From Bacteroidia bacterium (GTDB taxonomy: Bacteria; Bacteroidota; Bacteroidia; 2-12-FULL-35-15), in NCBI GenBank assembly GCA_039937835.1, contig JBDTFR010000022.1:5769-69768 (forward strand): a DNA stretch of 64,000 nucleotides, read 5' to 3'. Positions 8,806 to 64,000 of this stretch are shown here, piece by piece. The notes under the pieces were generated by a model. It was not told the origin of the DNA. It was given only the letters and a program-made list of their open reading frames with translations, and ran no database searches. The first letter of the stretch is position 1; each line of letters starts with the position of its first letter. The position numbers and the translations under genes were made by a program.

Positions 8806-10062
8806 ATGAAGTTAAGACGAGTAGTAGTTACAGGTCTCGGTGCTATTACACCTATTGGTAACAATATCACTGATTATTGGAACAATTTAATACAAGGTGT
8901 TAGCGGTGCTGCACCTATTACTCGTTTTGACGCCTCTAAATTTAAAACTCGTTTTGCTTGTGAAGTAAAAGGATTTAATCCCGAAGATTATCTTGATCGT
9001 AAAGAAGCACGTAAAATAGATCCCTTTTCGCAATATGGGTTGTGTTCTGCTATTCAAGCAGTGCGTGATGCAGGACTTGATGGCGAAAATGCATTTGATC
9101 CAGACAGAGCTGGAGTTATATGGGGATCAGGTATTGGTGGCTTGCAAACCTTTCAAGATGAATGTTTTAATTTTGCAAAAGGAGATGGAACTCCTCGTTT
9201 TAACCCATTCTTTATTCCCAAAATGATCGCTGATATTTGTTCGGGTCACATCTCTATCATGTTTGGAATGCGAGGACCAAATTTTACAACGGTTTCTGCA
9301 TGTGCATCCTCAACCAACGCATTGATTGATGCTGCCACCTATATTAAATTAGGCAAGGCAGATATTATTGTTAGTGGAGGTTCTGAAGCTGCTGTTTGCG
9401 AAGCAGGTATTGGTGGATTTAATGCCATGCACGCACTCTCTACTCGTAATGACTCACCAGAAACAGCCTCACGTCCTTTTGATGTAGATCGTGATGGGTT
9501 TGTGCTGGGTGAAGGCGCTGGTGCATTAATATTAGAAGATTTAGATCATGCTTTAAAACGCGGAGCCAAAATTTATGCGGAAGTAGTGGGTGGTGGTATG
9601 ACGGCAGATGCAAACCACATTACAGCACCTCATCCGGAAGGGTTAGGAGCAATGAATGTAATGCGTAATGCCTTACAAGATGCAGGAATGACTCCCGATC
9701 AAATAGATTATGTGAATGTTCACGGAACATCTACTCCTTTAGGAGATGTGGCAGAAACAAAAGCTATATTAAAGGTGTTTGGAGACAATGCCTATAAATT
9801 AAATATAAGTTCTACTAAATCAATGACCGGCCATTTATTAGGAGCTGCTGGTGCCATTGAAACAATAGCAAGTATTTTAGCAGTGCAGAACAATATTATT
9901 CCTCCTACCATAAATAATTTTAATGTTGATCCCGCATTAGACAGCAAGCTTAATTTTACTTTTGGAAAAGCCCAAAAGCGGGAAGTACGTGCTGCTCTTA
10001 GCAATACATTTGGCTTTGGTGGTCATAACGCTTCCATTATTGTAAAAAAATATATTGCTTAA
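8806..10062 (+). CDS. fabF: 3-oxoacyl-ACP synthase II
   Basis: 418 aa. Active-site Cys in SACASS, HGTSTPLGD, and the GHLLGAAG / FGFGGHNAS C-terminal motifs. Confidence 0.95.
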   Translation: MKLRRVVVTGLGAITPIGNNITDYWNNLIQGVSGAAPITRFDASKFKTRFACEVKGFNPEDYLDRKEARKIDPFSQYGLCSAIQAVRDAGLDGENAFDPDRAGVIWGSGIGGLQTFQDECFNFAKGDGTPRFNPFFIPKMIADICSGHISIMFGMRGPNFTTVSACASSTNALIDAATYIKLGKADIIVSGGSEAAVCEAGIGGFNAMHALSTRNDSPETASRPFDVDRDGFVLGEGAGALILEDLDHALKRGAKIYAEVVGGGMTADANHITAPHPEGLGAMNVMRNALQDAGMTPDQIDYVNVHGTSTPLGDVAETKAILKVFGDNAYKLNISSTKSMTGHLLGAAGAIETIASILAVQNNIIPPTINNFNVDPALDSKLNFTFGKAQKREVRAALSNTFGFGGHNASIIVKKYIA

Positions 10063-57548: not shown

Positions 57549-57765
57549 ACTTTCTTTTGTTAGGGCTCAGTTATAAAAATATTAAAGCAATTAAATTAAG
57601 ATTGATTTACTAAATTTGAGGTAGAGATATAATGCGGGTATGTGTAATACATTTATTCGCATGTTATCGGCAACCCTATGACGTTTGAACAGACCAAACA
57701 AGTAAAGAAAAGAAAACACTTAACAACAGACAAAAAATATAACTTTAGCAAATAATTATACGACA

Positions 57766-59154
57766 ATGAAAATAAATTCATTTACAGCAGAAGGGGTTCA
57801 CGACTACTTAAAATTTGACATAAAGTTTTTTCCAGACTTGACTTTTCTTATAGGAATAAATGGTTCAGGTAAAACAAGTGCCCTCAAACTAATTTTGGGA
57901 TTAACATCACCTTCTTACCAATATTTAAATCAATTGAATTATCAGTTTTGCGAAGTTATTTGCAGTAGCAAAAAAGACGAAAAAGATATTGTTCTAAGAG
58001 CAGAACAAAATAAGGCAGACAACACATTTACATTCAGCATAACTCGGAATGGCATTAAGGTTAGTTCCGAACCAATAAAGAGGTTTTCTCGTGGTGAAAA
58101 TATTCAATATGACTTTGAGGAGTTATCGCAAATCGAACAAAGACACAAAGAATCATTTGATGAATTAGAGGTAACACGAAAAATAAGAGAATTAGCTACA
58201 CCTAAATTTTTGGGGTTAGACAGAAGAATCTATGAAGGAGTAAATGCTGACTTTAGATTTAGAAACAGGAGACATCAACAATTTATAAATCCTAAATACC
58301 GTAATAGGAGATATGACGGCTTTCCAGAGCCACAAGCAATTGATTTAAGTCTTGAAGAAGTTCAAATGTTTGTTTTTGATTTTATAAGACAAATTCCTCA
58401 ACAACAATTTCAAATAAGCGATGAATTCAAGGAAAAATTATTTAAGGAATCCTTTAAATTCTACGAAGACTCTACAGTTGGAAAAATCCCCCCCACATCA
58501 GAAATTATCGAAAGAAAAGAAAAGGTTCTAAAAGCAATAGAAGATTTAGGTATTAAATATATCAATTACTCAATTAACGATTTCTTTAGCAAGATTGAAA
58601 AGATTGCCAAGGAATTCGAAAAGATTGACAAAAAAGAAAAGGAAAATATGCTTTCTCCACAGTATCGTGAAATAATTAGTCAATGGTATCTAAATGGAAA
58701 CCAACTTAAACGAATTGATGATATTATTACTTATAGCCAAGAGTATCAAAAGAAAATTATAGAATTAAAGGCACCACTTAAGAAATTGGAAGAACTTACC
58801 TCAAACTTTTTAGGAGAAGGAAAAAAAGTTCTACGAACTGAAACCGATGGTGAATTAAAAATAAAGTTGAAGAATGGACATTCAGCAAATATTTATGAAT
58901 TGTCTTCAGGTGAAAAGCAAATTATTATAATGATTGCTCATTTAATTTTCGAAGAAGCACAGAAGACTTCGGGCATATTTATTATTGATGAGCCTGAACT
59001 TTCTTTACATATTGCTTGGCAAGAGATATTTGTTCAGTCAATAATGCAAGCAAGCCCTAACACACAATTTATTCTGGCGACACATTCTCCTTCAATTATT
59101 GCTAAAGTTGACAAGGAAAAACATTGCCAAGATTTAAACAAATTTAATTTCTAA
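57766..59154 (+). CDS. AAA15/AAA21-type ABC ATPase (SMC/RecF-like) of a two-gene defence module; AriA/OLD-ATPase-like
   Basis: Walker A GINGSGKTSALK at residue ~30. About 330 aa of helical/coiled-coil insertion, then the ABC signature LSSGEKQ, Walker B IFIIDEPELSLH, the D-loop and H-loop ATHSP. 462 aa. Confidence 0.8.
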   Translation: MKINSFTAEGVHDYLKFDIKFFPDLTFLIGINGSGKTSALKLILGLTSPSYQYLNQLNYQFCEVICSSKKDEKDIVLRAEQNKADNTFTFSITRNGIKVSSEPIKRFSRGENIQYDFEELSQIEQRHKESFDELEVTRKIRELATPKFLGLDRRIYEGVNADFRFRNRRHQQFINPKYRNRRYDGFPEPQAIDLSLEEVQMFVFDFIRQIPQQQFQISDEFKEKLFKESFKFYEDSTVGKIPPTSEIIERKEKVLKAIEDLGIKYINYSINDFFSKIEKIAKEFEKIDKKEKENMLSPQYREIISQWYLNGNQLKRIDDIITYSQEYQKKIIELKAPLKKLEELTSNFLGEGKKVLRTETDGELKIKLKNGHSANIYELSSGEKQIIIMIAHLIFEEAQKTSGIFIIDEPELSLHIAWQEIFVQSIMQASPNTQFILATHSPSIIAKVDKEKHCQDLNKFNF

Positions 59155-59157
59155 ATT

Positions 59158-59997
59158 ATGCTTGAATTAAGTGACGAGCCAAAAAGATTGGTATCAACAT
59201 TTTTGACTTACCGCAACGAAATTGATATTTATACCGAAGATGAATTGAAGGACAAAGAATTTTATAAAGTTCTTTTTAGCAGACTTCTTGAAAATAAAAT
59301 AAATATAAATGACATAACTCCTTTGGGAGCGAGAAAAAACGTAATAAAAAGATGTGAAACGGAACCGGATAATGGTAGGAAAAAGATATTTATTATTGAC
59401 GGTGATGTAACTATAATACACGGCAAAAACATTCCAGCTCTTAAAAATCTTTTCGTTTTAGACGCATATTGTATTGAGAATTTTGTTATTGACGAACAAA
59501 GCGTTCTTAATTTTATTTACTTGAATTGTGCCTCTAAACCAAAGGAAGAAATTGCGAACGAATTAAAATTTGAAAATTGGTTAAATGGCTATTCCAATAA
59601 TCTTGTTGACCTTTTTATTCATTTTGGTATAACTGATTTCTTTGGTGGGAAGTTCAAACTATTCAACGCACATAAATTTCACCCGAAGGAAAACTATTCC
59701 GAAGAAATAGTAGAACAAGACATTGTAAAATTGAAGGCTGAAATCTTACTTCTTACTACTCAAGAAAACTATGAACTCAAATATGAGGAGCTAAAAAATC
59801 AATGGACAAATTGTGTTTCAAGTTTAATGACAATTGTATCAGGTAAGGACTACTTAATTCCTATTTTATTATTTAAAACACAATGCTACAAAAAATCAAA
59901 AGCAATGCCGACAGTTGAAGAAGCTAAATTTATGCTCGCTCAAAATTGTAATCTTGACCGACTCTCAAAACTGAAAGAGGCAATTGAAGCACTTTGA
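59158..59997 (+). CDS. DUF4435/TOPRIM-like (OLD-family nuclease-like) partner of the ATPase; AriB-like effector candidate
   Basis: Starts 4 bp after the ATPase stop. Conserved acidic residues in the spacing expected for a TOPRIM fold: Glu in IDIYTEDE (about aa 25-28) and DxD in KIFIIDGD (about aa 78-82). 279 aa. The domain call was made by eye and was not confirmed with an HMM search. Confidence 0.55.
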   Translation: MLELSDEPKRLVSTFLTYRNEIDIYTEDELKDKEFYKVLFSRLLENKININDITPLGARKNVIKRCETEPDNGRKKIFIIDGDVTIIHGKNIPALKNLFVLDAYCIENFVIDEQSVLNFIYLNCASKPKEEIANELKFENWLNGYSNNLVDLFIHFGITDFFGGKFKLFNAHKFHPKENYSEEIVEQDIVKLKAEILLLTTQENYELKYEELKNQWTNCVSSLMTIVSGKDYLIPILLFKTQCYKKSKAMPTVEEAKFMLAQNCNLDRLSKLKEAIEAL

Positions 59998-60756
59998 ACG
60001 TAATAAACCAAATTAGGACTGATAGAAGGGCAGCCGATAACAGCACCTATAAAAAATTGGCGGTTCAGTGGTTAAATGAAGTTTTGTTCTTCGTATCAAG
60101 TTTAGTGGTGGCAGACAGTTTATTGCTTCGAAATCGCCAACTTCTTATAGCTGCCAAAACGTGTGTGTCTTGAATCAGCAACGCATCTGAGTTGTTGAAT
60201 GCTATTTAAAAGATGGAAGACAAAAATGTGAAGGATAAATAATGTAGTGGAGCTCAAGCGAAATGAGTGGCCGTGCAACCAAACAAATTTGAGTGGCCTT
60301 CCAAAGACGGCTGTCAAGAGCAGTCTTTAAACCACCTGATGCTGCATTAAGAGGAAACTATTTTTGTGGTGAACGATTAGGAAAAACAGGAACACGTATT
60401 CCTGTAGGTGCATATATAGGAGCTGAATAAAATGAACTACCTATTAAGCCTCGTAAGCGCAATAGACAGAGCCGAAAACAGATAGCTACGTTTGTATTTG
60501 TGATAAGGGTGTAATGGACGACTTGATTGCTGATTACATGGCTCTCGGGGTAAAGGTAGCAGGAACTATATACAGGCTTTTAAATGGAACAAGAGAAATC
60601 GATACTGCGCTATTAAATTGTAAAAAGGAGCTAGCCATACAATGGATGTATGAAGTATCGGTGGCAGACCAGCTTGTAGTAGTGATAAAGTTACTGAAAG
60701 GTAATGGAGCGAAGAGGCTGGCTAGTTTAACTTTATAAAATGCACAACCGAAAGGG

Positions 60757-61980
60757 ATGATTGATTATTATGAAGTAAAATCACAGCCAATCACCAGGCT
60801 AATGGTTTGGCAGGCATACAGGAAAGTTAGAGCCAACAAAGGAAGTGCTGGCATAGATAATATGAGTTGGGAGTATTTAGACAACAATCTAAACACTGAA
60901 TTATACAAACTATGGAACAGAATGACCTCAGGCAGCTACTTTCCTCAAGCCGTTAAAGAAGTTAGCATTAAGAAAACAGACGGAGGGGAAAGAAAACTAG
61001 GAATTCCTACCTTGCTGGACCGTATAGCACAAGAAGTGGTAAAATCATATTTAGAGCCATTAGTAGAACCAATATTTCATCACAGTAGCTTTGGTTATCG
61101 ACCTAAAAGAAGCAGTCATGATGCAATTGCTCAATCGTGCAAGAATTGTTTCGGACATGATTTTGTGATAGATCTAGACATCAAAAGTTTCTTCGACATG
61201 ATGGATCATGAATTGATGATAAAATCAGTTGCTAACTATTGCAAAGAAAAATGGGTAATACTATACATCACTAGATGGTTAAAAGCAGGTATAGTGCAAA
61301 AAGAGGTTGGCTACGTAGATAGGTTAACAGGTACTCCGCAAGGCGGCGTAATAAGCCCTTTAATAGCCAATTTGTTTATGCATATTAGTTTTGATAAATG
61401 GATGGATAAATATCATTCAGAAAAGCCATTCGAACGTTATGCAGATGATATAGTGGTGCATTGCAAAACAGAGAAACAAGCGCTATTTATGTTAAGACAA
61501 ATAGAGCAACGCTTGACAAAACGCAAACTAGAGTTGCATCCCATTAAAACAAAAATTGTTAACTTACGAGGATCTGCAGTTGCAAACTATAGTAAGTCTT
61601 ACGACTTTCTTGGGTTTACAATACAACCTCACTGGTGCAAGATTAAGGGCAAAGGGATGCTACTTCCAAGTATTTTTATAAGCAAGAAATCTGAAAAGCG
61701 AATATTGTACAAATTTAAATCTATGCAAATACACAAACGGCGCAAACCAATAGAATTGCTAGCAAAAGAATTACGGCCAATTGTTCAAGGCATCATCAAC
61801 TATTATGGTAAATTTTCGACAGGACATCTAAGATTTTTGTGCCATCAAATAAATGTGCGCTTACTTAAATGGGTGAAATGGGAAAAGGGACTATACAAGA
61901 TGAAAGCTTTACAATGGCTAAGAGGAAAATTTCAATCCAACCGAAAACTTTTCCCACACTGGTTATTGGTAAATCCATAA
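60757..61980 (+). CDS. ltrA: Group II intron reverse transcriptase/maturase (RT domains 0-7 + X/thumb, no En domain)
   Basis: 407 aa. RT motifs: QAYRKVRANKGSAGIDNMSWEY (RT0/1), FGYRPKRSSHDA (RT2), GTPQGGVISPLIANLFM (RT4), RYADDIVVH (the YADD catalytic box). The maturase X region ends the protein, with no HNH or Zn domain. Confidence 0.9.
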   Translation: MIDYYEVKSQPITRLMVWQAYRKVRANKGSAGIDNMSWEYLDNNLNTELYKLWNRMTSGSYFPQAVKEVSIKKTDGGERKLGIPTLLDRIAQEVVKSYLEPLVEPIFHHSSFGYRPKRSSHDAIAQSCKNCFGHDFVIDLDIKSFFDMMDHELMIKSVANYCKEKWVILYITRWLKAGIVQKEVGYVDRLTGTPQGGVISPLIANLFMHISFDKWMDKYHSEKPFERYADDIVVHCKTEKQALFMLRQIEQRLTKRKLELHPIKTKIVNLRGSAVANYSKSYDFLGFTIQPHWCKIKGKGMLLPSIFISKKSEKRILYKFKSMQIHKRRKPIELLAKELRPIVQGIINYYGKFSTGHLRFLCHQINVRLLKWVKWEKGLYKMKALQWLRGKFQSNRKLFPHWLLVNP

Positions 61981-62010
61981 CTAATAAATACATTCGTGAT
62001 TGAACTAGAA

Positions 62011-62044
62011 GAGCCGTGTGAAGGGAGACTTTCAAGCACGGTTC
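62011..62044 (+). ncRNA. Group II intron catalytic domain V
   Basis: 34-nt hairpin matching the DV consensus GAGCCGUAUGCGAUGAAAGUCGCACGUACGGUUC, including the AGC triad and the G-U pair. Confidence 0.85.
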
Positions 62045-62102
62045 CGTGGGAACGGAAGGGTGAAACTCCCTTGCGTGACCCGATTAGGGAGCAATATGTG
62101 AT

Positions 62103-62163: not shown

Positions 62164-62511
62164 GTGAGTTTCGAACGACAAGTAATAGCTTATAAAAAAT
62201 ATTTTCTAGACTTTTATAAGGAACAGTCTGGTAACGTTCAGGCGAAAATTGAGTGGACGTTGGAGTTAATAAGGGTAAATAAACAGATTCCTGAGAAATA
62301 TTTTAAACATATGGCCGGGACGAAAGGACTCTATGAAGTTAGAGTTGAAGTCGGAAGTAATATTTTTAGAATTTTTGCATTCTTCGATAAAGGGAATTTG
62401 GTTGTATTAGGGAACGCTTTTCAAAAGAAAACTCAAAAGACCCCTAAACTTGAAATTGAAAAGGCACTTAAAATAATGGAGGAATATAATTATGAAAAAA
62501 ATAGCAAGTAA
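62164..62511 (+). CDS. higB: HigB-like / Gp49 (PF05973-like) RelE/ParE-superfamily type II toxin (GTG start)
   Basis: GLYEVRVEVGSNIFRIFAFFDKGNLVVLGNAFQKKTQKTPKLEIEKALK is the hallmark block of the phage-related HigB/Gp49 toxin family. The ORF opens with GTG. Confidence 0.75.
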   Translation: MSFERQVIAYKKYFLDFYKEQSGNVQAKIEWTLELIRVNKQIPEKYFKHMAGTKGLYEVRVEVGSNIFRIFAFFDKGNLVVLGNAFQKKTQKTPKLEIEKALKIMEEYNYEKNSK

Positions 62512-62800
62512 AAATATCACGACCTTAGACGAGATTCTTGACAAGAAATACGGAAAGAAAGGCGCTCCGAAACGTGAAAAATGGGAACAAGAGTTTGAAG
62601 CATTTCGACTCGGTGCATTACTTGAAGAAGCGCGCTTGAAAATGGGTTTAACACAAGAGGAACTCGCTGAAAAATGTGGAACAAATAAATCATATATTTC
62701 CCGCATCGAGAATAATGCATCAGACATAAGACTTTCCACACTTATGAAAATTATTCAGCAAGGCCTCGGTGGTCATTTAAAGCTAACACTTCAACTTTAG
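62492..62800 (+). CDS. higA: XRE-family HTH antitoxin (HigA-like)
   Basis: Overlaps the toxin gene by 20 bp. HTH in LTQEELAEKCGTNKSYISRIENN. 102 aa. Toxin-first gene order, as in higBA. Confidence 0.75.
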   Translation: MKKIASKNITTLDEILDKKYGKKGAPKREKWEQEFEAFRLGALLEEARLKMGLTQEELAEKCGTNKSYISRIENNASDIRLSTLMKIIQQGLGGHLKLTLQL

Positions 62801-63022
62801 TTTAAAAATAGCACATACCCGTAGCATCGATTTTACATATTGGCGAGCTAATCGCTTCGTATGAAACTAATCAGTAAATTTGAATGCTGTGTTTAGTAGT
62901 AGACCTATTCCTAAAACACGCCACTATGCAAAGCCCAGTTCGTTCGGCGTAATAAAAAAACGAAACCCGAGAAATAGTTTGAGTATATACTATTAATATA
63001 TACCTTTGTAGAAAATAGCATT

Positions 63023-63253
63023 ATGAAAACTCTATCTTTAAAACTTGACGACAAGATTTTTGACGAGGCCGAGGAAATGACCTCGAAACTGAAACTCGCT
63101 AGAAACCGTTATATTAACGAGGCAGTTAATATATACAACCTGTTTAATAAAAAGAAACTTCTTAAAAATCAATTAATAAAAGAGTCCAAACTAACAAGTA
63201 AAGACTCCATGGATGTTCTGCGTGAATTTGAAAAATTAATAGATGGAGATTAA
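63023..63253 (+). CDS. Putative antitoxin (small, helical) of a MazEF/PemIK-like pair
   Basis: 76 aa. It overlaps the downstream PemK/MazF-family gene by 11 bp and is assigned by position and size only. Confidence 0.5.
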   Translation: MKTLSLKLDDKIFDEAEEMTSKLKLARNRYINEAVNIYNLFNKKKLLKNQLIKESKLTSKDSMDVLREFEKLIDGD

Positions 63254-63578
63254 GCAGTTTGATATTTGGCTTGCTGATCTAAATCCAGCTCGCGGAACAG
63301 AACCAGGAAAAACAAGACCCGTTGTAGTGGTTCAGACAAACTTACTTAATGAAATGCATCCATCTACAATAATTTGCCCGATTGCTTCAAAAGTAAATAA
63401 TGAAATTTTATTGTTGAGAGTTCATTTAAAGAAAAATCAGCTCGATAAACCAAGCGATATTCTTATTGATCAAATACGATCTATAGATAACAAAAGGTTG
63501 CTCAAGAGGCTTGGGAAATTAACAAAAGAGCAAGCTCAAACGCTAAAAACAAATATTAGAATTGTTCTAGACATTTAA
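63243..63578 (+). CDS. PemK/MazF-family type II toxin (mRNA interferase)
   Basis: IWLADLNPARGTEPGKTRPVVVVQ (PemK N-terminal signature) plus the downstream ICPIAS and LIDQIRSIDNKRL blocks. 111 aa. Confidence 0.8.
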   Translation: MEIKQFDIWLADLNPARGTEPGKTRPVVVVQTNLLNEMHPSTIICPIASKVNNEILLLRVHLKKNQLDKPSDILIDQIRSIDNKRLLKRLGKLTKEQAQTLKTNIRIVLDI

Positions 63579-63654
63579 ACACATGCCCTAACATCATTTA
63601 TAGCAGATGCCCTTCGGGACATACACCATACACTTACCGTTCAATACCATTAAA

Positions 63655-64000
63655 ATGAATTCAAACATAATCTATATAAAAAATATGGTTTGCCCACGTT
63701 GCATCGACGTGGTAAGAGATATTTGTGAAGAATTAAACATCTCTATAAAGAAAATTCAATTAGGTAAAATAGAAAGTACTTCAGAAATAAGTGATAATTT
63801 AAAATCTAAACTAAGTGATTACTTAACAGAAAGAGGATTCGAATTACTTCAAGATAAAAATCAAAAAATTATTGAAGAAATTAAAACGATAATCGTAACA
63901 CAAATACACCATTCTAAAGAACAGTTAGCCATTAACTTTTCGGCGCACCTTTCTGAAAAATTACATCAAGAATATTCATCACTTAGCCGTCTCTTTTCAT
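63655..64000 (+). CDS. 5' part (partial, runs off window) of an AraC-family transcriptional regulator with N-terminal MVCxRC-type ligand/metal-associated domain
   Basis: ATG at 63655 (MNSNIIYIKNMVCPRCIDVV...). The N-terminal module is common in Bacteroidota AraC/XylS regulators. The expected C-terminal HTH lies outside the window. Confidence 0.5.
   Translation, partial: MNSNIIYIKNMVCPRCIDVVRDICEELNISIKKIQLGKIESTSEISDNLKSKLSDYLTERGFELLQDKNQKIIEEIKTIIVTQIHHSKEQLAINFSAHLSEKLHQEYSSLSRLFS

What the first reader, a model, noticed from the sequence alone, without database searches (positions are those of the whole stretch)
57766..59997. Two-gene ABC-ATPase + TOPRIM/DUF4435-like module: candidate PARIS-/OLD-type anti-phage system in a Bacteroidota genome
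Seen directly: a 462-aa protein with Walker A (GINGSGKT) and ABC signature/Walker B/H-loop (LSSGEKQ, IFIIDEPELSLH, ATHSP), the two halves separated by ~330 aa of helical insertion. A 279-aa protein starts 4 bp downstream. Its only conserved acidic constellation (E in YTEDE, DxD in IIDGD about 50 aa later) fits a TOPRIM-type metal site. Established knowledge: split AAA15/AAA21 ATPase plus DUF4435/TOPRIM is the architecture of PARIS (AriA/AriB), whose AriB effector cleaves tRNA-Lys after the ATPase senses phage anti-restriction proteins. OLD-family and Gabija systems fuse the two parts or add a UvrD helicase, which is absent here. Inference: the pair sits in a mobile/defence island with an intron and two TA loci, so a defence role is more likely than housekeeping. 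The second gene is short and divergent, so it could be a new variant rather than a textbook AriB.
Basis: partly seen in the sequence, partly recalled or inferred. Interest (0 to 1): 0.8.

Follow-up and report, generated by a model that had tools for sequence, protein, structure and literature searches.

The report
PARIS anti-phage pair on integron cassette
The two genes are a divergent but intact member of the known PARIS (AriA/AriB) anti-phage system, ordinary in itself; it is carried, here and across Bacteroidota, as an integron-type gene cassette whose recombination site has been invaded by a group II intron.

The parts
57663..57674 (+). Cassette 5' boundary box GTTATCGGCAAC. This is the distal half of the cassette's own R' site. 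GTTATCGGC is the exact reverse complement of the R'' box at 60033-60041.
   Evidence: It is the only exact copy in the 64-kb window. Homology with L003, L005 and L006 starts exactly here. Complementarity rule.
57740..57747 (+). TAACTTTA, a possible Bacteroidota-type -7 promoter element (consensus TAnnTTTG, from my own knowledge), 19 nt upstream of the ariA ATG. This is inference only.
   Evidence: Conserved in the upstream alignment of window, L003, L005 and L007; sequence read. The sigma-70 scan shows no enrichment.
57766..59154 (+). ariA: ABC-type (AAA_15/AAA_21) ATPase, 462 aa. Walker A K36, signature LSSGEKQ 379, Walker B D408/E409, H-loop H440. A variable basic loop lies at about 160-186.
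59158..59997 (+). ariB: DUF4435/TOPRIM nuclease effector, 279 aa. Invariant residues are E27, D28, D81, D83, Y104, E107, N108 and K230.
60030..60162 (+). attC-like recombination site of the ariAB cassette. R'' box GCAGCCGATAAC is at 60030-60041. The long imperfect stem runs 60044-60153. Spacer CCAAAAC is at 60154-60160. The first two bases (GT) of the R' core are at 60161-60162.
   Evidence: CM hits of 186 and 118 bits. Covariation at 19 of 21 stem pairs. Invariant TAACA...CGT(T).
60163..62084 (+). Group II intron (1,922 nt; starts GTGTG, ends CGAT) inserted at GT|T of the attC R' core, in the same orientation as the cassette genes. Its RT/maturase ORF is at 60757-61980.
   Evidence: Rfam hits; Pfam RVT_1+GIIM. 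Boundaries come from the end of homology at 60162 and comparison with uninterrupted copies and with L026.
62085..62094 (+). Remainder of the R' core and the 5' box of the next cassette (T|AGGGAGCAA). Joined to 60162 it restores ...AACGTTAGGGAGC, as in uninterrupted L005 (AACCGTTAGGGGC).
62164..62800 (+). Neighbouring toxin-antitoxin pair in the same attC cluster: Gp49/HigB-like toxin (62164-62511) and HTH_3 antitoxin (62492-62800).
62814..62950 (+). Weak second attC-like site after higA. It has the conserved TGGCG...CGCCA stem core, but its R'' box is degenerate.
   Evidence: CM R2 gives 22.7 bits, E 0.06; sequence.
63023..63578 (+). Second toxin-antitoxin pair: a 76-aa ORF with no Pfam hit, and a PemK/MazF toxin (63243-63578).
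63584..63641 (+). Putative short (58-nt) attC-like site, found by eye. R'' is TGCCCTAAC and the R' core GTT is at 63639-63641. It is the probable right edge of the cassette cluster.
   Evidence: Sequence. It gives a 7/9 match to the box expected from 62085. No model supports it.

Best explanation
The two genes are a PARIS (phage anti-restriction-induced system; class 4 OLD-like) abortive-infection module. The mechanism below is taken from the E. coli B185 system and is inferred here, not shown. AriA, an ABC ATPase, assembles into a hexameric scaffold that holds the TOPRIM nuclease AriB inactive. A phage-encoded trigger binds AriA in an ATP-dependent way; in E. coli the triggers are acidic anti-restriction proteins such as Ocr. 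AriB is then released, dimerises, and uses a two-metal site to nick specific host tRNAs in the anticodon stem-loop, which stops translation and phage production. In this protein the metal site would be E27, D81, D83 and E107. What is shown here is the domain composition, fold, catalytic and ATPase residues, gene order, co-evolution and purifying selection. The trigger and the RNA target are unknown. They may differ from E. coli, because the AriA regions corresponding to the E. coli trigger pores are the least conserved parts of the protein, and AriB is only 9-14% identical to E. coli AriB. The module is packaged as an integron-type gene cassette of about 2.5 kb (57663 to the attC core at 60161-60162/62085). 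It lies in a small attC cluster without a local integrase (CALIN type) between ppx and a downstream gene, together with two toxin-antitoxin pairs. This explains how the same pair appears in unrelated chromosomal contexts across Bacteroidota. A group II intron has inserted at the GT|T crossover point of its attC. Sub-confidences: PARIS identity about 0.9; integron-type cassette about 0.8.
For: PARIS identity.
- Pfam gives AAA_21 1.4e-22, AAA_15 1.4e-21 (full profile, 1-374) and DUF4435 1.2e-19. All three exceed the thresholds of the published detection rule (32, 27 and 27 bits; PMC9122126).
- PADLOC gives AriA models at 2.9e-27 and 5.5e-26 and the AriB model at 4.4e-20.
- AriA aligns over residues 8-446 to residues 11-430 of solved AriA 8ux9_B (E 1e-13). 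K36 matches K39, E409 matches E393, LSSGEKQ matches LSSGERQ and THSPS matches THSPS.
- E27, D28, D81, D83, Y104, E107, N108 and K230 are invariant in 39 sequences down to 22% identity. They sit at the ends of strands beta1, beta3 and beta4, as in TOPRIM. Their order and spacing match E. coli E26, D88, E90 and E122 (PMC11464382).
- AriA and AriB identities co-vary (r 0.95, 120 pairs). dN/dS is 0.03-0.09.

Cassette.
- A covariance model of the hairpin finds copies in 13 sources (12 loci plus the window), all on the gene strand, with arrays of 5 (L012), 4 (L024) and 2 (L005) sites.
- 19 of 21 stem pairs show compensatory changes; 92.6% of cells are paired versus about 40% in the slid controls, and 0 of 500 shuffles reach this.
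- TAACA...CGT(T) is invariant.
- The R'' box is the exact 9-nt reverse complement of the cassette's own 5' box in the window, L003, L006, L005 (x2), L012 (x2), L023, L024 (x3) and L029.
- The flanks of the pair are unrelated between loci.
- Two unrelated introns are inserted at GT|T, on the top strand in the window and on the bottom strand in L026. This matches the published IIC-attC target TTGT/T (PMC7923331).
Against: - No sequence-level link exists between this AriB clade and solved AriB, whether by single sequence or by two profiles. The residue correspondence with E26/D88/E90/E122 therefore rests on order, spacing and secondary-structure position, not on a printed structural alignment.
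- Foldseek global TM is only 0.44 and E 4.9e-3.
- AriA also scores equally well against PtuA (Septu/retron) models over its C-terminal half, so the ATPase alone does not define the system.
- No function was tested.
- For the cassette: no integron integrase, attI or Pc is present within the flanks, and IntegronFinder's attC model could not be run.
- The reconstructed attC is not thermodynamically exceptional (z -0.94).
- Some junctions break the box rule: L012 site 2, L024 site 1 to 2, and window site 62814.
- The covariation alignment was fitted to the model.
Confidence: 0.8

Rival explanations
1. The pair is a different ABC-ATPase + TOPRIM defence system (class 1 OLD, Gabija, AbiL/RloB, MADS3-4 or a retron/Septu PtuA-type effector) and not PARIS.
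Confidence: 0.05
2. The pair is a housekeeping or DNA-repair ATPase-nuclease (RecF/SMC-like), or a plain toxin-antitoxin addiction module, with no role in phage defence.
For: There is an SMC_N hit at 51 bits. The AAA_21 family is named after a type IV TA toxin. The cassette sits next to two TA pairs, and integron arrays are known to be stabilised by TA cassettes (bioRxiv 10.1101/2024.07.02.601686). No phenotype is available.
Against: There is no synteny with any housekeeping gene across 30+ loci. Distribution is patchy and each genome has a different insertion context. Co-resident cassettes are defence-type: an Mrr_cat nuclease, an Eco57I-like RM enzyme and ParE. Homologous pairs sit in phage accessory regions, namely the gpV-gpS region of an E. 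coli P2-like phage and the left end of Sinorhizobium phage Aussie. A PARIS system is itself formally toxin-antitoxin-like (PDB names AriA 'antitoxin'), so an addiction effect would not contradict a defence role.
Confidence: 0.07
3. The conserved 3' hairpin is not an integron attC. It could be a terminator or REP-like element, or the end of a transposon-like element with terminal inverted repeats. In that case the pair moves by another mechanism.
For: No IntI, attI or Pc lies nearby. At 134-146 nt the sites are at or above the usual attC upper size, and their sequences are unusually similar between genera (76% mean column identity). The thermodynamic z-score is unremarkable.
Against: There is no T-run, and the terminator scan does not flag the hairpin. 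The 6 variable nucleotides of the boxes differ from cassette to cassette but always match within a cassette (12 exact cases). That is the opposite of transposase-recognised inverted repeats and is what R'/R'' pairing in a circular cassette predicts. Head-to-tail arrays have one ORF or operon per site. The AAC...GTT cores are invariant. Group II introns sit at the published attC target GT/T on either strand. Integrons and CALINs are already documented in Bacteroidota (PMC8618304).
Confidence: 0.15

Closest known systems
PARIS (AriA/AriB) of E. coli B185 P4-like satellite (PDB 8ux9, 8v45-8v49; Rousset 2022; Burman 2024; Deep 2024; Belukhina 2025)
   Different: AriB is 9-14% identical and cannot be linked by HMM profiles, and it is about 26 aa shorter. 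The E. coli pore arginines R116 and R119 align to S121 and E124. The corresponding region (residues 61-120), residues 271-300 and a basic loop (160-186) are the most variable parts in this clade, so the trigger probably differs. The vehicle also differs: an integron-type cassette in Bacteroidia rather than a P4 satellite hotspot. The clade is nearly absent from viral contigs. The tRNA target is unknown.
Brc59 (Gcu59), an AriAB homologue carried as a cassette of class 1 mobile integrons (Kieffer et al., bioRxiv 10.1101/2024.07.02.601719)
   Same: It is a PARIS-type system packaged as an integron gene cassette and shown there to block phage production.
   Different: Brc59 comes from clinical mobile integrons of Pseudomonadota with IntI1, attI and Pc. 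Here the system is a two-gene cassette with a long (~140-nt) attC in chromosomal attC clusters of Bacteroidota that lack a local integrase. It recurs across many genera. No sequence comparison with Brc59 was possible.
Defence cassettes of sedentary chromosomal integrons (Darracq et al., bioRxiv 10.1101/2024.07.02.601686)
   Same: Arrays mix defence and toxin-antitoxin cassettes, with one system per cassette. Here ariAB sits with HigBA-like and PemK pairs, and in relatives with Mrr_cat, ParE and RM-like genes.
   Different: Those systems are mostly single small 'streamlined' genes in Vibrio and other Pseudomonadota. This cassette is large (about 2.5 kb, two full-length genes) and is not noticeably streamlined.
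Group IIC-attC introns (e.g. S.ma.I2; PMC3001079, PMC7923331)
   Same: The intron is inserted directly after the attC stem at xxGT/T. The RT has no endonuclease domain, only RVT_1+GIIM. The L026 copy has the canonical bottom-strand orientation.
   Different: The window's copy is on the top strand, co-oriented with the cassette genes. The literature describes this as rare. The intron class was not determined, and the two RTs are only 31% identical.
Class 1 OLD and Gabija (GajA) ABC-ATPase/TOPRIM nucleases
   Different: Here the domains are on separate polypeptides. The effector is a DUF4435-type protein with a helical C-terminal half. There is no UvrD-like GajB.

Membership tests
PARIS (AriA/AriB) | ATPase gene matching Pfam AAA_15 (>=32 bits) or AAA_21 (>=27 bits), per the published MacSyFinder rule | tested here: met
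   AAA_15 78.0 bits and AAA_21 81.6 bits. Rule quoted from PMC9122126.
PARIS (AriA/AriB) | Adjacent gene matching DUF4435 (PF14491, >=27 bits) | tested here: met
   71.5 bits, profile positions 2-230 of 238. PADLOC AriB PDLC02983 at 4.4e-20. The genes are 3 nt apart.
PARIS (AriA/AriB) | AriA homologous over its full length to solved AriA, with the ATPase catalytic residues shown to be required (K39, E393) | tested here: met
   Residues 8-446 align to 11-430 of 8ux9_B, E 1e-13. K36 matches K39 and E409 matches E393. Mutant data come from PMC11464382.
PARIS (AriA/AriB) | AriB fold: N-terminal TOPRIM plus helical dimerisation region of DUF4435 | tested here: met
PARIS (AriA/AriB) | TOPRIM two-metal acidic residues (E. 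coli E26, D30, D88, E90, E122) | tested here: met
   E27, D28, D81, D83 and E107 are invariant in 39 sequences. They lie at strand ends in the model. The mapping to E. coli residues is by order and spacing only; no residue-level alignment was obtained.
PARIS (AriA/AriB) | AriA and AriB co-evolve within a system | tested here: met
   r = 0.95 between pairwise AriA and AriB identities in 16 loci. L006 and L008 are partial exceptions.
PARIS (AriA/AriB) | AriA6:AriB3 complex that releases AriB on trigger binding | not testable with these tools
   No multimer prediction or biochemistry is available here.
PARIS (AriA/AriB) | Activation by a phage anti-restriction protein, and tRNA cleavage by AriB | not testable with these tools
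   This needs phage challenge and tRNA sequencing. The pore residues R116 and R119 are not conserved.
Integron gene cassette / attC site | Imperfect inverted repeat (57-141 nt) at the 3' end of the cassette, with R''...AAC and GTT...R' cores | tested here: met
   The sites are 134-146 nt with invariant TAACA and CGT(T). They lie directly after the last ORF of each unit. Their length is at or slightly above the usual upper bound.
Integron gene cassette / attC site | Structure conserved while sequence varies | tested here: met
   19 of 21 pairs of the main stem have changes on both sides. 85% of cells are paired, against 32-46% when slid, and 0 of 500 shuffles reach this. Caveats: the alignment was fitted to the model, and the thermodynamic z-score is only -0.94.
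Integron gene cassette / attC site | Cassette boundary inside R' (G|TT), so that R'' pairs with the box at the cassette's own 5' end | tested here: met
   12 exact 9-nt reverse-complement matches, each unique in the region searched. There are three exceptions.
Integron gene cassette / attC site | Tandem, co-oriented arrays of cassettes | tested here: met
   L012 has 5 sites, L024 has 4 and L005 has 2. The window has 1 strong site, 1 weak site and 1 found by eye.
Integron gene cassette / attC site | Integron platform: intI, attI and Pc next to the first cassette | tested here: not met
   Upstream of the window's cassette is ppx. No integrase-like ORF lies within +-10 kb in the loci inspected. 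[quoted passage not shown]
Integron gene cassette / attC site | Recognition by IntegronFinder's attC model, and extrahelical bases on the recombinogenic bottom strand | not testable with these tools
The stem does contain conserved single-base bulges, but their role is untested.
Group II intron (attC-targeting) | Ribozyme domains, RT/maturase ORF, GUGYG...AY ends, insertion after the attC stem at TTGT/T | tested here: met
   RF01999 68.6 bits and RF00029 58.3 bits. RVT_1+GIIM. The intron starts GTGTG and ends CGAT, with insertion at AACGT|T. The published consensus is in PMC7923331. Class (IIC or other) was not determined.
Gabija / class 1 OLD | ATPase and TOPRIM fused in one protein (OLD, GajA), plus a UvrD-like helicase GajB for Gabija | tested here: not met
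   There are two separate ORFs, no TOPRIM_OLD hit and no helicase in the cassette.

The most novel reading that the evidence does not exclude
Bacteroidota may possess a widespread integron-type cassette system with unusually long (~140 nt) attC sites that are conserved in sequence between genera. These sites would shuttle complete multi-gene defence systems between chromosomes, using an integrase supplied in trans. PARIS is a recurrent cargo, alongside Mrr-like nucleases, RM-like genes and toxin-antitoxin pairs. In this reading the PARIS clade is a cassette-borne lineage whose AriA sensor region is diversified by recombination (L006 is mosaic). Its highly divergent AriB may recognise a trigger and an RNA target different from those in E. 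coli. Two unrelated group II intron lineages parasitise the attC crossover point on either strand, which could lock cassettes in place.
Probability: 0.35. Interest if true: 0.55.

Novelty: new member of a known kind. Interest (0 to 1): 0.35.

Why it matters
The gene pair itself would be called PARIS by standard tools, so the defence call adds a divergent member and no new biology. In the source MAG it is annotated only as 'AAA family ATPase' plus a DUF4435 protein. The value lies in three places.

1. The clade has a solved-structure relative only at the fold level. It is therefore a good test of which parts of PARIS are universal (the ATPase core and the TOPRIM site) and which are tuned to the host (the pore and loop regions, and tRNA specificity).
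2. The cassette structure gives a concrete mechanism for how a complete two-gene abortive-infection system spreads among Bacteroidota chromosomes. It extends the recent 'integrons as defence biobanks' idea beyond Vibrio and other Pseudomonadota, and to a large, non-streamlined cassette.
3. The precise cassette boundaries define a ready-to-clone unit, and the attC model can be used to mine neighbouring cassettes for new defence genes.

Tried and rejected
- Sequence link from gene 2 to solved AriB failed three ways: single sequence, a 29-sequence profile and a 39-sequence profile. I could not obtain the E. coli B185 AriB sequence for a residue-level alignment.
- The E. coli P2-like phage AriB that I fetched also does not hit solved AriB. 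This shows that such distance is normal between PARIS clades.
- NCBIfam has no model for gene 2.
- One PDB search was wasted on a too-strict cut-off, one DNA search was malformed, one paper reading used an illegal term, and one translation was out of frame.
I trimmed the alignment and rebuilt it.
- I looked for strain variants of the ppx locus without the island. Only the same genome is on record.
- Permissive Rfam scans found no known RNA family for the hairpin.
- The sigma-70 promoter and terminator scans were uninformative: 11 promoter-like sites against 11.5 expected.
- I considered a transposon with terminal inverted repeats, a terminator and a REP element for the hairpin, and rejected them (see rivals).
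- I considered the 57559 GTTAGGGCT box as the original cluster boundary. That remains unresolved.
Full report
**1. Observation**

The window holds two co-oriented ORFs at exactly the reported coordinates: 57766-59154 (462 aa) and 59158-59997 (279 aa), separated by 3 nt.
- Gene 1: GINGSGKT at 30-37 (K36), LSSGEKQ at 379, IFIIDEPELSLH at 404 (D408/E409), ATHSP at 438.
- Gene 2: YTEDE at 25 (E27) and IIDGD at 79 (D81, D83).

The neighbours are as described. mfd, a herA-like ATPase, a histidine phosphatase, ppk1 and ppx lie upstream. Downstream are a group II intron, a Gp49/HigB-like + HTH pair and a PemK/MazF pair. The window comes from an NCBI MAG labelled 'Bacteroidia bacterium', in which gene 1 is annotated only as 'AAA family ATPase'.

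**2. What the proteins are**

Gene 1:
- It matches AAA_21 (81.6 bits) and AAA_15 (78 bits, whole profile), and PADLOC AriA models at about 1e-26 to 1e-27.
- PtuA and retron ATPase models score similarly, but only over the C-terminal ~100 residues.
- Against the PDB, only AriA aligns end to end (residues 8-446 to 11-430 of 8ux9_B, E 1e-13).
- In that alignment K36 falls on K39 (Walker A) and E409 on E393 (Walker B). Both are residues whose mutation abolishes PARIS function (PMC11464382). The signature and H-loop motifs are near-identical.

Gene 2:
- It matches only DUF4435 (71.5 bits, cut-off 27) and PADLOC AriB (4.4e-20).
- It has no sequence-level hit to any solved chain, alone or as a profile of 29 or 39 family members.
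- I therefore predicted its structure from the family alignment (pLDDT 91.6, pTM 0.86).
- Foldseek against the PDB ranks the two solved AriB chains first and second (probability 0.99 and 0.93, but TM only 0.44 and 14% identity).
- Across 39 relatives down to 22% identity the invariant residues are E27, D28, D81, D83, Y104, E107, N108 and K230.
- The acidic residues sit at the C-terminal ends of strands 1, 3 and 4 of the model. They follow the same order and similar spacing as the E. coli metal ligands E26, D88, E90 and E122. That mapping is by order and position; I could not obtain a residue-level alignment.

**3. Family and selection**

The DUF4435 subfamily is large: 792 representatives at 50% clustering with E<=1e-3. 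Almost all of the 150 best are 275-300 aa.

In 30 reference-genome loci from many Bacteroidota genera, the ATPase lies immediately upstream in every locus that has upstream DNA. The genera include Terrimonas, Mucilaginibacter, Chitinophaga, Cellulophaga, Ravibacter, Lunatimonas, Barnesiella, Muribaculaceae and Kapaibacterium.

AriA and AriB identities co-vary (r 0.95), as published for PARIS. dN/dS against three relatives is 0.03-0.09 for both genes.

Within AriA the nucleotide-binding motifs stay 83-100% identical. Residues ~61-120 and ~271-300 fall to 20-50% identity. A basic loop at ~160-186 (8 Arg/Lys) keeps its position and charge but not its sequence. The E. coli pore arginines R116 and R119 align to S121 and E124. 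This fits the published statement that pore residues are poorly conserved and tuned to different triggers.

**4. Membership**

The pair passes the published detection rule for PARIS: AAA_15 >=32 or AAA_21 >=27 bits, plus an adjacent DUF4435 >=27 bits (PMC9122126). It also meets every structural feature I could test.

Gabija and class 1 OLD are excluded, because the domains are not fused and there is no UvrD-like gene.

The sequence distance to E. coli B185 AriB is not exceptional. The DUF4435 partner of a PARIS pair in an E. coli P2-like phage also fails to hit solved AriB. A Mu-like Sinorhizobium phage carries a pair 25-28% identical to this one.

I conclude that this is a PARIS system of a Bacteroidota clade. 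Its mechanism is inferred by homology, not shown here: AriA sequesters AriB, ATP-dependent trigger binding releases it, and the AriB dimer nicks tRNAs. The trigger and target are unknown.

**5. The surroundings: an integron-type cassette**

Comparing DNA with the closest relatives showed that only about 2.4 kb is shared. None of the window's flanking genes recurs next to the pair elsewhere. Annotated contexts differ in every genome.

Directly after ariB lies a ~140-nt element that also occurs at other positions in L012 and L026. It is a long imperfect hairpin.

A covariance model found copies in 13 sources (12 loci plus the window), all on the gene strand. There are arrays of five sites in L012, four in L024 (each after an ORF, then ariAB) and two in L005. 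A weak second site lies after higA in the window.

The main stem shows compensatory changes at 19 of 21 pairs (85% of all cells paired versus 32-46% in the slid controls; 0 of 500 shuffles). The caveat is that this alignment was fitted to the model. Only TAACA at the 5' side and CGT(T) at the 3' side are invariant. These are the AAC/GTT cores of attC R''/R' boxes.

The decisive test is this. In an integron, recombination within R' (G|TT) leaves the distal half of a cassette's own R' at its 5' end. The R'' box of each attC should therefore be complementary to the box at the start of its own cassette, not to the one that follows it.
- In the window, the homology boundary is GTTATCGGCAAC at 57663, the only exact copy in 64 kb. 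R'' at 60033-60041 is GCCGATAAC, its exact reverse complement.
- The same exact 9-nt relation holds in L003, L006, L005 (twice), L012 (twice), L023, L024 (three times) and L029. The six variable bases differ in each cassette.
- Three junctions do not fit: L012 site 2, L024 site 1 to 2, and window site 62814.
- The reconstructed circular attC folds into an R-box helix, an internal loop and a long stem. Its free energy is not exceptional (z -0.94). The support therefore comes from covariation and the box rule, not from stability.
- No integrase lies within the flanks, so these are CALIN-type clusters.

Co-resident cassettes encode an Mrr_cat nuclease and a ParE pair. In L012 an Eco57I-like enzyme and a HATPase_c_3 protein lie just upstream of the array.

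**6. The intron**

Homology with uninterrupted copies stops at 60162. The intron starts GTGTG at 60163 and ends ...CGAT at 62084. Joining the exons restores ...AACGT|TAGGGAGC, as in L005.

In L026 a different intron (RT 31% identical) sits on the opposite strand, between ariB and the hairpin. It too is at GT|T, of the bottom-strand core. This is the published target of IIC-attC introns (TTGT/T). Bottom-strand insertion is the rule, and co-oriented insertion is a rare exception. This independently supports the attC reading.

**7. Novelty and score**

- PARIS occurs in about 5% of genomes, so its presence in Bacteroidia is unsurprising.
- Integrons are documented in Bacteroidota.
- Defence systems in integron cassettes are established.
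- One AriAB homologue (Brc59) has been described in a class 1 mobile integron.

What appears new is that a whole two-gene PARIS clade travels as large cassettes with long attC sites in Bacteroidota attC clusters, and that its attC is targeted by group II introns on either strand. I rate this a new member of a known kind, with interest 0.35. Confidence is about 0.9 for PARIS identity and about 0.8 for the integron-type cassette.

Noticed in passing
window 60163-62084; L026 1706-3573: Group II introns inserted at GT|T of attC cores: on the top strand (co-oriented with the cassette genes) in the window, and on the bottom strand in L026. The RTs are only 31% identical, so two lineages share the same target.
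   Followed up: yes
L006 2866-4257 versus window 57766-59151: AriA of L006 looks mosaic. The first ~60 aa, the last ~100 aa and all of AriB are 83-93% identical to the window, but the central ~270 aa are only 30-67% identical and match no sampled lineage. This suggests recombination or fast divergence in the sensor region. L008 shows the opposite imbalance (AriA 82%, AriB 67%).
   Followed up: partly
window 57766-59997 versus L003, L005, L007: Synonymous divergence of ariA (dS 1.3-2.0) is about twice that of ariB (0.78-0.86) within the same cassettes. This may reflect saturation, or different histories for the two genes.
   Followed up: no
window 57559-57567: GTTAGGGCT lies 11 nt after the ppx stop. 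It is an 8/9 match to the reverse complement of the R'' box (TGCCCTAAC) of the putative third site at 63584. It may mark the original left edge of the cassette cluster. The 104 nt between it and the ariAB 5' box contain a small hairpin.
   Followed up: partly
L012 34-5739 and 5988-11085: A Bacteroidales MAG locus carries a DNA methylase, an Eco57I-like 968-aa enzyme and a HATPase_c_3 protein. These are followed by five attC-like sites bracketing ariAB, two short ORF-less units, a ParE toxin pair and then a DUF6557 gene. Site 2 (8848-8987) has a degenerate R'' box.
   Followed up: partly
L041 566-2775 (Sinorhizobium phage Aussie) and L040 2035-4138 (Escherichia phage vB_EcoM-813R9): Phage-borne AAA_15/21 + DUF4435 pairs are annotated only as hypothetical proteins or as an ATPase. 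One is at the left end of a Mu-like phage next to the c repressor and ner. The other lies between gpV and gpS of a P2-like phage.
   Followed up: partly
L003 7443-8609; L035 7693-8609: About 0.9-1.2 kb without a called gene lies upstream of ariA in two relatives. These stretches could hold further ORF-less cassettes or degenerate attC sites. I did not examine them.
   Followed up: no
window 63655-64000: An ORF runs off the window end (MNSNIIYIKNMVCPRC...), with a CxxC motif, no significant Pfam hit and a homologue in L020. It lies immediately after the putative last attC site, so it is either the first gene outside the cluster or another cassette.
   Followed up: no
window 1-64000: The only Rfam families reaching the gathering threshold in the whole 64-kb window are the two group II intron models. 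No tRNA, rRNA or riboswitch hit was found.
   Followed up: no
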